Of a stretch of 10,201 nucleotides of DNA, positions 889 to 2,440 are shown one piece after another. The notes under the pieces are model-generated. The model searched no databases. It was not told the origin of the DNA and saw nothing but the letters and a program-made list of their open reading frames with translations. Numbering within the stretch: the stretch's first letter is position 1; every line of letters starts with the position of its first letter. Origin of the DNA: a virus; UHGV virus genome UHGV-0350838; one strand, written 5' to 3'. Both the position numbers and the translations under genes were made by a program.

Positions 889-933
889 TTCCCGCATTTC
901 GGCGGGAATAAGGACCATGACTGTTAAAGAGCA
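889..933 (-). promoter_or_regulatory. nutR: boxA plus boxB hairpin, just downstream of cro
   Basis: Minus-strand boxA TGCTCTTTAACAG (921-933) and boxB TCCCGCCGAAATGCGGGAA (889-907); the boxB 19-mer is identical to the one at nutL. Confidence 0.6.
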
Positions 934-939
934 ATTTGC

Positions 940-1125
940 TTATGCCGCTTTGCGATAAGCACTTTCTTGATACTTCAGGGCGCCAGCTGTAACGACTTCC
1001 AGTCGATAGGCGTCTTTCTCTGGGATGACTTCCTTCCACTGAGAGACTGCTGCATCGCTAATGCCTAACGCTTTAGCTACCGCACGCTGGGTTCCGAAGT
1101 GGTCGATAACATCTTTCTTGTACAT
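940..1125 (-). CDS. cro: Cro repressor, P22 Cro-type, 61 aa
   Basis: MYKKDVIDHFGTQRAVAKALGISDAAVSQWKEVIPEKDAYRLEVVTAGALKYQESAYRKAA is near-identical to P22 Cro as I recall it; transcribed divergently from the repressor gene. Confidence 0.9.
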   Translation of the reverse strand: MYKKDVIDHFGTQRAVAKALGISDAAVSQWKEVIPEKDAYRLEVVTAGALKYQESAYRKAA

Positions 1126-1139
1126 AGACTCGCTCCGAA

Positions 1140-1205
1140 GTTAAAGAACACTTAAATTATCTATCAAAGGAATCTTAAGTCAAGTTTATTTAAGATGTCT
1201 TAACT
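1140..1205. promoter_or_regulatory. OR operator region with divergent PR (minus strand, toward cro) and PRM (plus strand, toward c2)
   Basis: P22-type 18-bp operators: GTTAAAGAACACTTAAAT (1140-1157) and ATTTAAGATGTCTTAACT (1188-1205, abutting the c2 ATG). PR on the minus strand has -35 TTGACT (1178-1183) and -10 GATAAT (1156-1161), 17-bp spacer. c2 has no Shine-Dalgarno, consistent with a leaderless PRM transcript. Confidence 0.75.
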
Positions 1206-1856
1206 ATGAATACACAACTGATGGGTGAGCGTATTCGCGCTCGCAGAAAAGAACTTAAGATTAGGCAGGCTGCCCTTGGCAAGATGGTTGGCGTGTCTAA
1301 TGTTGCTATTTCCCAATGGGAGCGTTCTGAAACTGAGCCCAATGGCGAAAACCTATTGGCTTTAGCCAAGGCTTTACAGTGCTCCCCTGATTACTTGTTG
1401 AAAGGAGAAGATAGTCTTTCAAACATTGCCTATCACAGCAGGCATGATCCAAGAGGTTCGTATCCTCTAATTAGTTGGGTAAGCGCAGGATGTTGGATGG
1501 AAGCTGTAGAGCCATATCATAAGCGTGCAATAGATAACTGGTACGATACAACCGTAGATTGTTCAGAAGATTCGTTTTGGCTGGACGTAAAGGGTGATTC
1601 GATGACGGCTCCAGCCGGTCTTAGCATCCCGGAAGGGATGATAATACTAGTCGATCCTGAAGTAGAACCTCGTAATGGGAAGCTGGTAGTGGCAAAGCTC
1701 GAAGGAGAAAACGAGGCAACTTTTAAGAAGTTAGTTATTGATGCTGGCAGAAGGTTTCTAAAACCACTTAACCCACAATATCCGATGATTGAGATCAACG
1801 GTAACTGCAAAATCATCGGTGTAGTTGTCGATGCAAAAATAGCAAACCTTCCATAA
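1206..1856 (+). CDS. c2: Prophage repressor, P22 C2-type: N-terminal HTH domain plus C-terminal LexA-like S24 autocleavage domain, 216 aa
   Basis: MNTQLMGERIRARRKELKIRQAALGKMVGVSNVAISQWERSETEPNGENLLALAKALQCSPDYLL... matches P22 C2 nearly residue for residue from memory; the S24 domain carries the GDSM serine and a downstream lysine. Confidence 0.95.
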   Translation: MNTQLMGERIRARRKELKIRQAALGKMVGVSNVAISQWERSETEPNGENLLALAKALQCSPDYLLKGEDSLSNIAYHSRHDPRGSYPLISWVSAGCWMEAVEPYHKRAIDNWYDTTVDCSEDSFWLDVKGDSMTAPAGLSIPEGMIILVDPEVEPRNGKLVVAKLEGENEATFKKLVIDAGRRFLKPLNPQYPMIEINGNCKIIGVVVDAKIANLP

Positions 1857-1878
1857 GGGGCATTCGCCCCTTTTTTCT
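1857..1878 (+). terminator. Intrinsic terminator after the repressor gene
   Basis: GGGGC-ATTC-GCCCC hairpin followed by TTTTTTCTTT immediately after the c2 stop codon. Confidence 0.7.
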
Positions 1879-1919
1879 TTCCTTTAAAAATCAAAGCAAA
1901 ACTTAAACTTCGCAATAAA

Positions 1920-1973
1920 ATTTAAGCTTTCTTCAAAAATACCCTTGACCAATAATTAAAGAAATCTTAAATT
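1920..1973 (+). promoter_or_regulatory. OL operators and PL promoter
   Basis: P22-type operators ATTTAAGCTTTCTTCAAA (1920-1937) and ATTAAAGAAATCTTAAAT (1955-1972) flank a -35 TTGACC (1945-1950); -10-like TAAATT at 1968-1973; directed toward the N-like gene. Confidence 0.65.
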
Positions 1974-2019
1974 TAAGTCATCAGCAGGACGCTGGTAGCC
2001 AAACGGAACAGATTAGCAG

Positions 2020-2061
2020 GCTCTTTAACATTGATGGGATTGTCCCGCCGAAATGCGGGAA
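2020..2061 (+). promoter_or_regulatory. nutL: boxA plus boxB hairpin
   Basis: boxA GCTCTTTAACA (2020-2030) is close to the rrn-type boxA consensus; boxB TCCCGCCGAAATGCGGGAA (2043-2061) forms a 6-bp stem with a CGAAAT loop and is identical to the nutR boxB. Confidence 0.65.
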
Positions 2062-2167
2062 CCAAAGAGTAGTTGGCTTTGGGGTGACGTGAAGTGCAGC
2101 TGCACGACGGCAACCGGAAGATAAGCACCCGGCGCGTCACCGCCAAAGTCAATCATCGGAGGTCAAC

Positions 2168-2440
2168 ATGGCAGTAGTCATTACATATCTGGCTGACGAT
2201 AACGCCAGAAATCGCCGCAGAGCACGCAGACAGGCTCAACGTGAGCAGGCAATGCAAGAACAGCGACTGGCGCGAAAAATTGCGCTAAAGCTCTCTGGTT
2301 GCGTCAGAGCAGACAAAGCAGCATCACTCGGAAGCCTTCGCTGCAAGAAGGCAGATGAATGCAGTGGAAGTATTTGCCTGCCAAACGTAGCCATTTACGC
2401 GGCAGGCTACCGGAAATCAAAACAACTGACAGCGAGATGA
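2168..2440 (+). CDS. N: N-family transcription antiterminator (arginine-rich motif), 90 aa
   Basis: First gene after PL and nutL, with GGAGG Shine-Dalgarno 5 nt upstream; N-terminal arginine-rich motif NARNRRRARRQAQREQ resembles the lambda N ARM but is not identical to lambda, P22 or phi21 N as I recall them. Confidence 0.7.
   Translation: MAVVITYLADDNARNRRRARRQAQREQAMQEQRLARKIALKLSGCVRADKAASLGSLRCKKADECSGSICLPNVAIYAAGYRKSKQLTAR

What the first reader, a model, noticed from the sequence alone, without database searches (positions are those of the whole stretch)
889..2440. N-like antiterminator with a boxB shared by nutL and nutR that matches neither lambda nor P22
The 90-aa protein after PL has an arginine-rich motif (NARNRRRARRQAQREQ) but differs from lambda, P22 and phi21 N as I remember them. 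Both nut sites carry the identical 19-mer TCCCGCCGAAATGCGGGAA, a 6-bp stem with a CGAAAT loop, which differs from the lambda (GCCCT-GAAAAA-GGGC) and P22 boxB hairpins. The N/boxB pair therefore appears to be a distinct specificity class, coevolved and carried with the left arm rather than with the immunity module.
Basis: partly seen in the sequence, partly recalled or inferred. Interest (0 to 1): 0.4.

Follow-up and report, generated by a model that had tools for sequence, protein, structure and literature searches.

The report
HK620-type phage N antiterminator and nut sites
This is the early antitermination switch of a lambda-like prophage (an N protein plus its two RNA hairpin targets), of a type already annotated in phage HK620 and common in E. 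coli, whose RNA-recognition code differs from the three studied examples but has not been tested in the laboratory.

Summary
The 19-mer TCCCGCCGAAATGCGGGAA occurs exactly twice (889-907 minus strand, 2043-2061 plus strand). Each copy lies 10-12 nt downstream of a boxA in the PR and PL transcripts. The 90-aa ORF (2168-2440) belongs to the N family (Pfam PF25694, PHROG 271).

It is not new. The window is 100% identical to E. coli ETEC H10407. N and both nut patches are about 97% identical to phage HK620, where N, nutL and nutR have been annotated since 2001. 487 of 5,426 complete E. coli genomes carry the region.

N is a mosaic. Residues 1-34 are class-specific, 35-61 are identical to phi21 N, and the C-terminus resembles P22 and Stx-phage N.

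Across about 480 nut sites in non-redundant IMG/VR loci, ARM class (HK620, phi21, P22, lambda) matches boxB loop class with no exceptions. Repressor types reassort freely. N proteins with unrelated bodies keep D.A.NRRR..R beside CCGC-CGAAAU-GCGG hairpins.

So a separate ARM/boxB class, independent of immunity, is well supported comparatively but untested biochemically. The boxB is close to P22 nutR (CCGC-C-GACAA-C-GCGG), so cross-reactivity is not excluded. "Carried with the left arm" is wrong: the unit is two short patches flanking the immunity region.

The parts
922..933 (-). nutR boxA (TGCTCTTTAACA, identical to the rrn-type boxA consensus), immediately after the cro stop codon
   Evidence: Read from the sequence and found by the boxA-plus-hairpin scan. 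The same element is annotated as boxA or nutR in HK620, HK630 and phage 21. The mosaic junction with phage 21 falls at this boxA.
887..910 (-). nutR boxB hairpin: UAUUCCCGC-CGAAAU-GCGGGAAUA, a 9-bp stem and hexaloop. The 19-mer of the finding is 889-907.
   Evidence: Nearly identical (one spacer base differs) to the site annotated nutR in HK620.
940..1125 (-). cro (P22/21 type). It is the first gene of the PR operon and lies between PR and nutR.
   Evidence: Pfam P22_Cro, E = 9e-28. About 95% DNA identity to phage 21.
1156..1183 (-). PR-like promoter (TTGACT-16-GATAAT)
   Evidence: Consensus scan; the position corresponds to PR of HK620 and P22. This is a pattern match only.
1206..1856 (+). 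cI/C2 repressor (P22/21 type, HTH plus S24 peptidase). It is the immunity module around which the N/nut patches are exchanged.
   Evidence: Pfam; repressor cluster 0.
1945..1973 (+). PL-like promoter (TTGACC-17-TAAATT)
   Evidence: Consensus scan; the position corresponds to PL annotated in HK620 and P22. This is a pattern match only.
2020..2030 (+). nutL boxA (GCTCTTTAACA)
   Evidence: Annotated as a putative Nut boxA in HK630 and HK140 and inside nutL of HK620.
2043..2061 (+). nutL boxB hairpin UCCCGC-CGAAAU-GCGGGA, a 6-bp stem and hexaloop, 12 nt after boxA
   Evidence: The boxA-spacer-boxB stretch is identical to HK620 nutL.
2168..2269 (+). N residues 1-34: the class-specific N-terminal segment holding the ARM (core D11-N-A-R-N-R-R-R-A-R-R21). 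This is the part that co-varies with boxB.
   Evidence: Natural chimeras HK629 and VT1-Sakai have the phi21 version of residues 1-34 plus phi21 boxB on the same body. The core D.A.NRRR..R is invariant in 12 representatives with divergent bodies. The table is strictly diagonal.
2270..2440 (+). N residues 35-90 plus the stop codon: the body. Residues 35-61 are identical to phi21 N (presumed NusA-binding part). The C-terminal 24 or so residues, ...CLPNVAIYAAGYRKSKQLTAR, resemble P22 and Stx-phage N (presumed RNA-polymerase-binding part).
   Evidence: Alignments; tblastn of the C-terminal 27 residues; the domain roles follow the N domain architecture described in PMC3526286.
3441..3462 (+). First intrinsic-terminator-like hairpin with a T-run in the PL operon downstream of N. 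Others are at 3966-3983 and 4109-4130. These are candidate targets of antitermination.
   Evidence: Consensus scan: 8 found against 3.4 +/- 1.9 expected. HK620 annotates tL1 and tL2 terminators in the equivalent arm. This is a pattern match only.

Best explanation
The region is the early antitermination module of a lambda-like prophage of E. coli. After induction, PL and PR fire. The PL transcript first carries nutL (boxA plus the boxB hairpin) and then encodes N. The N-terminal arginine-rich helix of N (core DNARNRRRARR) binds the boxB hairpin on the nascent RNA at nutL and, in the PR transcript just after cro, at nutR. boxA recruits NusB/NusE, the phi21-like middle of N recruits NusA, and the P22/H-19B-like C-terminus contacts RNA polymerase. 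The polymerase thereby becomes resistant to the Rho-dependent terminator after nutR and to the intrinsic terminators in the left arm. The ARM/boxB pair is the HK620 type, a recognition class separate from lambda (GAARA pentaloop), P22 (GACAA pentaloop) and phi21 (CUAACC hexaloop). Its hexaloop C-GAAA-U is most simply read as a true GNRA tetraloop flanked by a C.U mismatch. That matches the phi21 architecture (a C.C-flanked UAAC) and corresponds to P22 nutR without the looped-out cytosine. Shown here: the anatomy, the homology, the co-variation and hairpin conservation. Inferred: binding, loop fold, host-factor contacts and antitermination itself.
For: Anatomy. The arrangement is boxA, spacer, boxB in the sense orientation in both early operons, with N as the first PL gene preceded by a GGAGG ribosome-binding site. 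Promoter-like and terminator-like sites lie where expected.

Family. N matches Pfam PF25694 above its cut-off and PHROG 271.

Identity. N and nutL are about 97% identical to HK620, where N, nutL, nutR and tR1 are annotated. Plaque-forming phages (HK620, HK140, HK630, CUS-3, N7, JEP4, ECP1, IME10) carry this pair, and the fetched HK620 early region annotates a single N gene.

Co-variation. HK629 and VT1-Sakai N differ from the window N essentially only in residues 1-34, and they have phi21 boxB. A 4x4 table of ARM class against boxB loop is strictly diagonal: nutL 76/56/60/65 and nutR 63/46/58/55, with 0 off-diagonal. Repressor types reassort among ARM classes.

Class breadth. At least 12 N proteins average 34% identity outside the N-terminus and have three C-terminal types. 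All keep D.A.NRRR..R and sit behind CCGC-CGAAAU-GCGG hairpins.

RNA structure. Across 22 distinct sites, 88.6% of cells pair against at most 60.8% in slid registers. Four pairs change on both sides, including G-C to A-U next to the loop-closing pair. Loop positions C, G, A, A and U are invariant, and the single variable position (A or C) keeps GNRA.

Structural analogy. In the phi21 complex the hexaloop is a GNRA-like fold flanked by a C-C pair. In P22 the looped-out C contacts His7 and Arg11 of the peptide (PMC12550061). In the alignment the window ARM has Arg and Gln at those two positions, and its boxB lacks that C.
Against: There is no experimental evidence for binding or antitermination by this pair. 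No paper in the searchable library contains the boxB sequence or discusses HK620 N function. nutL is only about 124 nt from the ARM codons, so their association is partly plain linkage. Within the P22/21-type repressor cluster, the HK620-ARM and phi21-ARM loci form two separate clades (cI DNA over 99% identical within a class, about 90% between). There the nutR match could reflect descent rather than selection. The survey sets are close relatives of four query proteins, so the number of independent events is far below the number of loci. Stem covariation rests on few events, and one of the 22 sites (L275) belongs to a phage with a different ARM. Three loci carry an intact HK620-type N with no cognate boxB at all (mEp213, L057, L008). 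This N is therefore either dispensable there or able to act on other sites. The GNRA-plus-C.U loop fold is a reading of the sequence, not a result.
Confidence: 0.85

Rival explanations
1. It is a real N/nut pair, but not a separate specificity. The HK620-type ARM and boxB overlap functionally with P22 and/or lambda, so N proteins and nut sites of these classes can substitute for each other. The strict co-occurrence then reflects linkage and modular recombination rather than a recognition barrier.
For: The boxB differs from P22 nutR only by loss of the looped-out C and a C-to-U change on the 3' flank. The ARM core RRR-x-RR has the same spacing as lambda's, and the loop GAAA is the canonical form of the fold that lambda boxB mimics. 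mEp213-type phages keep an intact HK620-type N beside lambda-type N and lambda-type nut sites only. A paper title cited (Cocozaki et al. 2008) says that P22 boxB requirements overlap with those of lambda. A C-GCAA-U hexaloop nutR occurs with an unrelated ARM in L275.
Against: No off-diagonal ARM/boxB combination appears among about 480 nut sites, even though immunity modules reassort between them. The two P22 peptide residues that touch the looped-out C are both replaced in this ARM. The ARM core and the loop are far more conserved than the rest of N or the stem.
Confidence: 0.25
2. The two hairpins are not N targets. They are conserved for another reason, such as an RNase III or Rho-related element or a DNA-level palindrome bound by a protein, and N acts elsewhere or without boxB.
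For: The 24-nt nutR element is a near-perfect DNA palindrome. No binding data exist. The whole-context folds of nutL and nutR are not significantly more stable than shuffles (z = -1.2 and -1.5).
Against: Position and orientation match the canonical nut architecture: boxA, a spacer of about 10-12 nt, then the hairpin, in the sense strand of both operons. No other boxA-plus-hairpin sites exist in the region. The hairpin class switches exactly with the ARM class. Compensatory changes keep the RNA pairing. There is no T-run after either hairpin, so they are not intrinsic terminators.
Confidence: 0.04
3. In this particular genome the module is an inactive relic of a defective prophage, so the pair has no current function even though the type is functional elsewhere.
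For: Truncated prophages carrying this N exist (L013 and L026 are cut inside cro). The window alone cannot show inducibility.
Against: All early genes in the window are intact from O to int. N, both nut sites, PL and PR are undamaged. The same arrangement is 99-100% conserved in many complete genomes and about 92% identical in isolated phages N7, IME10, JEP4 and CUS-3.
Confidence: 0.1

Closest known systems
Phage HK620 N / nutL / nutR (GenBank AF335538; also HK140, HK630, CUS-3, N7, JEP4, ECP1, IME10)
   Same: N is 97% identical over 90 aa. The nutL boxA-spacer-boxB stretch is identical, and nutR is nearly identical. Both flanking patches (window 716-932 and 1973-2436) are about 97% identical in DNA.
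   Different: HK620 has a different cI/cro immunity pair and a different left arm beyond N. The window has P22/21-type immunity, as do N7, IME10, JEP4 and CUS-3. The HK620 nut sites are annotated as 'putative', and I found no functional study.
Phage phi21 N / boxB (NMR complex PDB 1NYB)
   Same: The boxA is the same. N residues 35-61 are identical. The immunity type is the same. boxB is also a 6-nt hexaloop on a 6-7 bp stem, and by analogy a 4-nt GNRA-like core flanked by a pyrimidine-pyrimidine pair.
   Different: The loop is CUAACC rather than CGAAAU. The ARM is GTAKSRYKARRAELIAERR rather than DNARNRRRARRQAQREQAM. The C-terminus is lambda-like (...KPLI) rather than P22-like. The two classes never mix in 56 and 76 loci respectively.
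Phage P22 gp24 / boxB (NMR complex PDB 1A4T)
   Same: P22 nutR boxB has the same upper stem and 5' flank: CCGC-C-GACAA-C-GCGG against CCGC-C-GAAA-U-GCGG. The C-terminal segment of N is similar (75%). The repressor/cro type is the same, and sieB follows N in both.
   Different: P22 loops are GACAA pentaloops with a looped-out C that contacts His and Arg of the peptide. Here the C is absent and the aligned residues are Arg and Gln. The P22 ARM is AKTRRHERRRK. No mixing was seen in 60 P22-ARM loci.
Phage lambda N / boxB
   Same: The overall mechanism and gene order are the same. The ARM has the same RRR-x-RR spacing after an Ala-x-(Thr/Asn) start. The lambda loop folds as a GNRA mimic, and here the loop core is a literal GNRA.
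   Different: The lambda stem is GCCCU/AGGGC with a GAARA pentaloop. Lambda N has Trp18 and this N has no aromatic residue in the ARM. The N bodies are unrelated in sequence apart from the family signature. phmmer did not link the window N to any solved N structure.
H-19B / Stx-phage N (studied in PMC3526286)
   Same: The C-terminal RNA-polymerase-binding-type segment is 92-96% identical to that of many Stx-phage N proteins. HK620's own annotation notes similarity to H19B and 21 N.
   Different: The H-19B ARM is RSRRRER, and the protein is longer (127 aa in that paper's numbering). Its nut sites were not compared here.

Membership tests
Lambdoid N / nut processive antitermination system | Small N-family protein with an N-terminal arginine-rich motif | tested here: met
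   Pfam PF25694, E = 2e-15, 57.5 bits against a 27.9-bit cut-off. PHROG 271, E = 9e-34. The ARM lies at residues 11-25.
Lambdoid N / nut processive antitermination system | N is the first gene of the PL operon, next to the immunity region | tested here: met
   The order is cII, nutR, cro, PR/OR, cI, PL, nutL, N, sieB. This is the same order as annotated in HK620, P22, phage 21 and lambda.
Lambdoid N / nut processive antitermination system | nut sites (boxA, spacer, boxB hairpin) in the transcribed sense of both early operons | tested here: met
   nutL is at 2020-2061 (plus) and nutR at 933-887 (minus). They are the only two such sites in the window.
Lambdoid N / nut processive antitermination system | boxB forms a conserved RNA hairpin | tested here: met
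   The hairpin alone folds at -10.5 kcal/mol, z = -3.3. Across 22 distinct sites 88.6% of cells pair against at most 60.8% in slid registers, and 4 pairs change on both sides. The evidence is modest because there are few independent events.
Lambdoid N / nut processive antitermination system | The ARM binds boxB RNA, and N with Nus factors suppresses downstream terminators | not testable with these tools
   Only indirect evidence is available: strict ARM/boxB co-variation, terminator-like sites downstream and viable phages that carry this pair.
Lambdoid N / nut processive antitermination system | Segments for NusA and RNA polymerase contact follow the ARM | tested here: inconclusive
   Residues 35-61 are identical to phi21 N, and the C-terminus is 92-96% identical to Stx-phage N proteins. 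The functions are assigned by homology to studied N proteins, not tested.
HK620-type ARM/boxB class | ARM core D-[NT]-A-[RK]-N-R-R-R-x-[RK]-R together with boxB CCGC-CGAAAU-GCGG at nutL and nutR | tested here: met
   The window has DNARNRRRARR and the exact boxB at both sites. It is the same as in HK620 and in 76 of 78 (nutL) and 63 of 65 (nutR) surveyed loci.
lambda specificity class | ARM MDAQTRRRERRAEKQAQW with the boxB GCCCU-GAARA-AGGGC | tested here: not met
   The reference sites come from NC_001416. The window's stem, loop length and ARM all differ, and 0 of 65 lambda-ARM loci have the CGAAAU loop.
P22 specificity class | ARM GNAKTRRHERRRK with a GACAA pentaloop boxB | tested here: not met
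   The reference comes from BK000583. The loop lacks the looped-out C and the ARM lacks His. The nutR upper stem is shared. 0 of 60 P22-ARM loci have the CGAAAU loop.
phi21 specificity class | ARM GTAKSRYKARRAELIAERR with a CUAACC hexaloop boxB | tested here: not met
   The references come from OL657228 and EU078592. The loop length is the same but the loop and ARM sequences differ. 0 of 56 phi21-ARM loci have the CGAAAU loop.

The most novel reading that the evidence does not exclude
The HK620-type pair is a fourth, structurally distinct and orthogonal peptide-RNA recognition mode. An ARM helix without any aromatic or histidine residue reads a true GNRA tetraloop closed by a C.U mismatch, and it does not cross-react with lambda, P22 or phi21 boxB. 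A more speculative add-on concerns the intact 'orphan' copies of this N in mEp213-type phages, which have only lambda-type nut sites. They may act on a non-cognate or still unrecognised RNA target, giving those phages a second layer of antitermination control.
Probability: 0.45. Interest if true: 0.4.

Novelty: already known. Interest (0 to 1): 0.25.

Why it matters
For genome annotation it matters little. This is a standard lambdoid early-regulation module, of a type deposited with HK620 in 2001 and present in roughly a tenth of complete E. coli genomes. RefSeq annotation still calls the N gene 'hypothetical protein' in 10 of the 12 listed genomes.

Its modest value lies elsewhere. Only three N-peptide/boxB pairs are cited as structurally studied in the paper read here (PMC12550061). 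The survey here defines another natural class by a simple rule: ARM core D.A.NRRR..R with a C-GAAA-U hexaloop on a CCGC/GCGG stem. It also identifies natural chimeras (HK629 and VT1-Sakai against this N) that differ only in the 34-residue recognition segment. Those are ready-made reagents for testing how ARM peptides discriminate between GNRA-like loops, and possibly for a further orthogonal RNA-tethering pair.

The data also give a clean picture of how lambdoid mosaicism keeps N, nutL and nutR matched while immunity cassettes are exchanged between them.

Tried and rejected
- **Rfam scan of 700-2500:** run at permissive E-values, it gave only chance-level hits, and no curated family covers nut sites. 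The leader inserts also have no Rfam family.
- **PDB and NCBIfam:** a PDB sequence search with N returned only spurious RNF168 matches. N peptides are too short or too divergent for phmmer. NCBIfam has no model for this protein.
- **Literature:** no paper holds the boxB sequence. Searches on HK620, boxB and antitermination found only a phage epsilon34 genome paper, which makes the same kind of inference for another N. One search on nutL/nutR was wasted on nutrition papers because of word-start matching. Cilley & Williamson 2003, Cocozaki et al. 2008 and the CUS-3 paper are not held. Clark et al. 2001 (HK620) was not looked up.
- **Genome-contig scan:** it gave only 4 loci, two of them in MAGs assigned to Segatella and Oxalobacter, which I did not examine further. 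It was not useful.
- **Selection argument within one immunity type:** I hoped that nutR matching N inside the single P22/21 immunity type would prove selection. It does not. The two ARM classes sit on separate cI clades (over 99% identity within, about 90% between), so that stratum alone is explained by descent.
- **Compensatory stem changes among close relatives:** only one-sided C-to-U changes appeared. Compensatory changes turned up only in the divergent nutR sites.
- **Script errors found and fixed:** the nutR segment was cut too short, the ORF patterns were too strict, and the loop and phi21 patterns were wrong.
- **Readings considered and rejected:** the hairpins are not intrinsic terminators, because there is no T-run. 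L013 and L026 are not ARM/nutR mismatches, because they are prophages truncated inside cro.
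Full report
**What is there**

The window is the early region of a lambdoid prophage, drawn so that the plus strand is the direction of PL transcription. From left to right it holds:
- an O-like replication gene (54-563, minus);
- cII (553-831, minus);
- nutR;
- cro of the P22/21 type (940-1125, minus);
- a PR-like promoter;
- a cI/C2 repressor (1206-1856, plus);
- a PL-like promoter (1945-1973);
- nutL;
- the 90-aa ORF (2168-2440, plus);
- sieB (2457-3038, minus);
- a lambda-like left arm that ends in a lambda-type integrase.

The stretch 860-2445 is 100% identical to E. 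coli ETEC H10407 (NC_017633.1, 869995-871580). It is present at 80% coverage or more in 487 of 5,426 complete E. coli genomes.

**The observation**

- The 19-mer TCCCGCCGAAATGCGGGAA occurs exactly twice, at 889-907 (minus) and 2043-2061 (plus). None was expected in 200 shuffles.
- On its own it folds as a 6-bp stem with the loop CGAAAU, at -10.5 kcal/mol and z = -3.3. At nutR the stem extends to 9 bp.
- Each copy lies in the sense strand of its operon, 10-12 nt after a boxA: GCTCTTTAACA at 2020-2030 and TGCTCTTTAACA at 933-922. These are the only two boxA-plus-hairpin sites in the window.
- The ORF matches Pfam N_peptide (PF25694, E = 2e-15, above the curated cut-off) and PHROG 271 'anti-termination protein N-like'.

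**It is already on record**

- N and nutL are 97% identical to phage HK620 and to HK140, HK630, JEP4, ECP1, CUS-3, N7 and others.
- The HK620 record (AF335538) annotates N ('similar to Bacteriophages H19B and 21 N protein'), 'nutL; putative N-utilization leftward', 'nutR' and tR1 at exactly these positions.
- Its nutL boxA-spacer-boxB stretch is identical to the window's, and its nutR differs by one spacer base.
- The window's combination of P22/21-type immunity with this N/nut type also exists in phages N7, IME10, JEP4, CUS-3 and Gally.
- I found no experimental study of this pair. No paper in the searchable library contains the boxB sequence. The only paper that mentions HK620, boxB and antitermination together is a phage epsilon34 genome paper, which infers a 'novel BoxB specificity' for a different N from its divergent N-terminus.

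**N is a mosaic, and only its first 34 residues go with boxB**

- Residues 35-61 are identical to phi21 N.
- The C-terminal 24 or so residues (...CLPNVAIYAAGYRKSKQLTAR) resemble P22 gp24 and Stx-phage N.
- HK629 and VT1-Sakai N are essentially identical to the window N from residue 35 to 90. They carry the phi21 version of residues 1-34, and their nutL boxB is the phi21 type.
- A sliding comparison puts the junctions as follows:
  - The immunity core, window about 931-2008, is phage-21-like.
  - Two patches, 716-932 (cII and nutR boxB) and 1973-2436 (nutL boxB, leader and N), are each about 97% HK620-like.
  - The rightward junction with phage 21 falls at boxA of nutR.
  - Homology to HK620 stops at the N stop codon.
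  - From 2378 onward the arm is P22-like.
- The unit is therefore not 'the left arm'. It is two short patches on either side of the immunity cassette.

**Survey of related loci**

I fetched 80 IMG/VR loci for each of four query N proteins: this one, the phi21-ARM type, P22 gp24 and lambda N. After removing redundancy I classified the ARM and the loop of the boxA-linked hairpin at nutL and nutR.

| ARM class | nutL with matching loop | nutR with matching loop | Off-diagonal |
|---|---|---|---|
| HK620 (CGAAAU) | 76 | 63 | 0 |
| phi21 (CUAACC) | 56 | 46 | 0 |
| P22 (GACAA) | 60 | 58 | 0 |
| lambda (GAARA) | 65 | 55 | 0 |

The misses that I examined are not mismatches. L013 and L026 are prophages truncated inside cro, and the nutL misses are 'orphan' N genes with no nut site (see below). 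Four further nutR misses, in phi21-ARM loci (L096, L123) and lambda-ARM loci (L429, L435), were not examined.

Immunity reassorts against this background:
- The HK620 ARM travels with four unrelated cI/cro pairs.
- The P22/21-type repressor occurs with HK620, phi21 and P22 ARMs.
- The lambda-type repressor occurs with lambda and P22 ARMs.

Caveats:
- nutL is only about 124 nt from the ARM codons.
- The loci are close relatives of the queries.
- Within the P22/21 repressor cluster the two ARM classes sit on separate cI clades (over 99% identity within, about 90% between), so that stratum alone does not prove selection.

**Breadth of the class**

I scanned IMG/VR for boxA followed by a CGAAAT loop. 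The scan found N proteins whose bodies differ widely. They are 76-99 aa long and have three different C-terminal types...KSIPLI...RKSKQLTAR and ...RKDATHIVK. All sit behind a CCGC-CGAAAU-GCGG hairpin, and all retain the ARM core. Among 12 representatives, the N-terminal 22 or so residues average 76% identity against 34% for the rest of the protein, and D.A.NRRR..R is invariant.

**The hairpin**

The nutR sites of the divergent members read CUCCCAC-CGAAAU-GUCGGAG. The second pair from the loop has changed from G-C to A-U, and the third is a C.C or C.A mismatch. Across 22 distinct sites:
- 88.6% of cells pair, against at most 60.8% in slid registers;
- four pairs show changes on both sides;
- loop positions C, G, A, A and U never vary, and the third position is A or C, so the inner four bases are always GNRA.

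One of the 22 sites (L275) belongs to a phage with a different ARM, whose nutL is a GAGA tetraloop. A C-GNRA-U hexaloop is therefore not exclusive to this ARM.

**How it probably works**

This section is inference.

- Reference nut sites taken from database records are:

| Phage | boxB |
|---|---|
| lambda | GCCCU-GAARA-AGGGC |
| P22 nutL | GCGCU-GACAA-AGCGC |
| P22 nutR | CCGC-C-GACAA-C-GCGG |
| phi21 nutL / nutR | CUCAAC-CUAACC-GUUGAG / UCACCU-CUAACC-GGGUGA |
| window | CCGC-C-GAAA-U-GCGG |

- A 2025 structural survey describes the phi21 hexaloop as a GNRA-like 4-nt fold flanked by a C-C pair (PDB 1NYB). It describes the P22 pentaloop as a GNRA fold with a looped-out C that contacts His7 and Arg11 of the peptide (PDB 1A4T) (PMC12550061).
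- The window's boxB has the upper stem and 5' flank of P22 nutR. Its loop is most simply read as a true GNRA tetraloop flanked by a C.U mismatch, that is, the phi21 architecture with a different core, or P22 nutR without the looped-out C.
- In the alignment, the two P22 residues that touch that C align with Arg18 and Gln22 of this N.
- This fits a separate recognition class, but it is not a test. The similarity to P22 nutR, and the lambda-like RRR-x-RR spacing of the ARM, leave cross-reactivity open.
- The rest of the mechanism follows the established N paradigm as summarised in PMC3526286. boxA binds NusB/NusE. The middle of N contacts NusA. The C-terminus contacts RNA polymerase. The modified polymerase then reads through tR1 and the left-arm terminators.
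- Terminator-like hairpins lie at 3441-3462, 3966-3983 and 4109-4130.

**Verdict**

- The finding describes a real, correctly located N/nut module.
- The idea of a matched ARM/boxB class independent of immunity is well supported by comparison.
- The module is an already annotated and very common type (HK620). The 'left arm' linkage is wrong, the difference from P22 is smaller than stated, and the distinct specificity remains untested.
- Interest is low to moderate.

Noticed in passing
L004 2606-2878 / L007 (phage mEp213, JQ182733 record 30879-31151); also L057 and L008: Some phages carry an intact HK620-type N (98.9% identical in DNA to the window's) with no cognate boxB anywhere. mEp213 has a lambda-type N first in the PL operon, lambda-type nutL and nutR, and this second 'orphan' N about 1.5 kb downstream. 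Either the copy is a passenger, or it acts on something other than a CGAAAU boxB.
   Followed up: partly
Equivalent of window 2062-2167 in L052, L037, L070, L044, L077 (type A); L036, L048, L010, L078 (type B); L035 (both); L058, L072 (type C): The leader between nutL boxB and the N start codon is an insertion hot spot. About 20 of the 80 fetched loci have 195-562 nt there instead of 107. There are at least three unrelated inserts: about 205 nt just before the N ribosome-binding site; about 235 nt directly after boxB, beginning with a 3-codon mini-ORF behind AGGAGG; and a 39-aa hydrophobic ORF (MLDIITNPILGG...) behind a lambda-like N leader. None matches an Rfam family. The type B insert is the sequence upstream of mEp213's orphan N.
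   Followed up: partly
L275 (IMGVR_UViG contig), nutR near 10884 on the reversed strand and nutL near 3732: A phage with a different ARM (MNAKQRCKLRRLERRSEERN...) has two unlike boxB hairpins. Its nutL is a GAGA tetraloop (GUAUGCC-GAGA-GGUGUAC) and its nutR is CCCUGC-CGCAAU-GUGGGG. Both have GNRA cores. This suggests a further uncharacterised ARM/boxB class and shows that C-GNRA-U hexaloops are not unique to the HK620 ARM.
   Followed up: partly
nutR sites of L186, L192, L256, L177, L179, L180, L271, L228, L189, L272: In the divergent members of the class, nutR always has a mismatch (C.C or C.A) at the third stem pair from the loop, while their nutL stems are fully paired. A conserved asymmetry of this kind between nutL and nutR may tune N loading at the two operons.
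   Followed up: no
window 2019-2070: In the nutL transcript the minimum-energy fold pairs boxA (CUCUUU) with AAAGAG just 3' of boxB, which places boxB at the tip of a longer helix. The fold is not significantly more stable than shuffles (z = -1.2), and nutR has no equivalent. This could sequester boxA, but it was not examined further.
   Followed up: no
window 187-543, 553-932 and 2378-3284: The mosaicism is fine-grained. The O gene segment is 99% identical to phage 21/DE3. The cII gene and nutR boxB are HK620-like (97%). The end of N plus sieB is P22-like (88%). One junction with phage 21 falls exactly at boxA of nutR, which suggests that the conserved boxA serves as a recombination joint.
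   Followed up: partly
L013 and L026 (IMG/VR loci): These are prophage remnants in which homology to the window begins inside cro (window 1030 and 1078). PR, nutR and the right arm are missing, while PL, nutL and N remain intact.
   Followed up: yes
window 2168-2440 as annotated in RefSeq genomes: In 10 of the 12 complete E. coli genomes listed, this N gene is annotated as 'hypothetical protein'. Only two records call it 'transcriptional antitermination N peptide', and NCBIfam has no model for it.
   Followed up: yes
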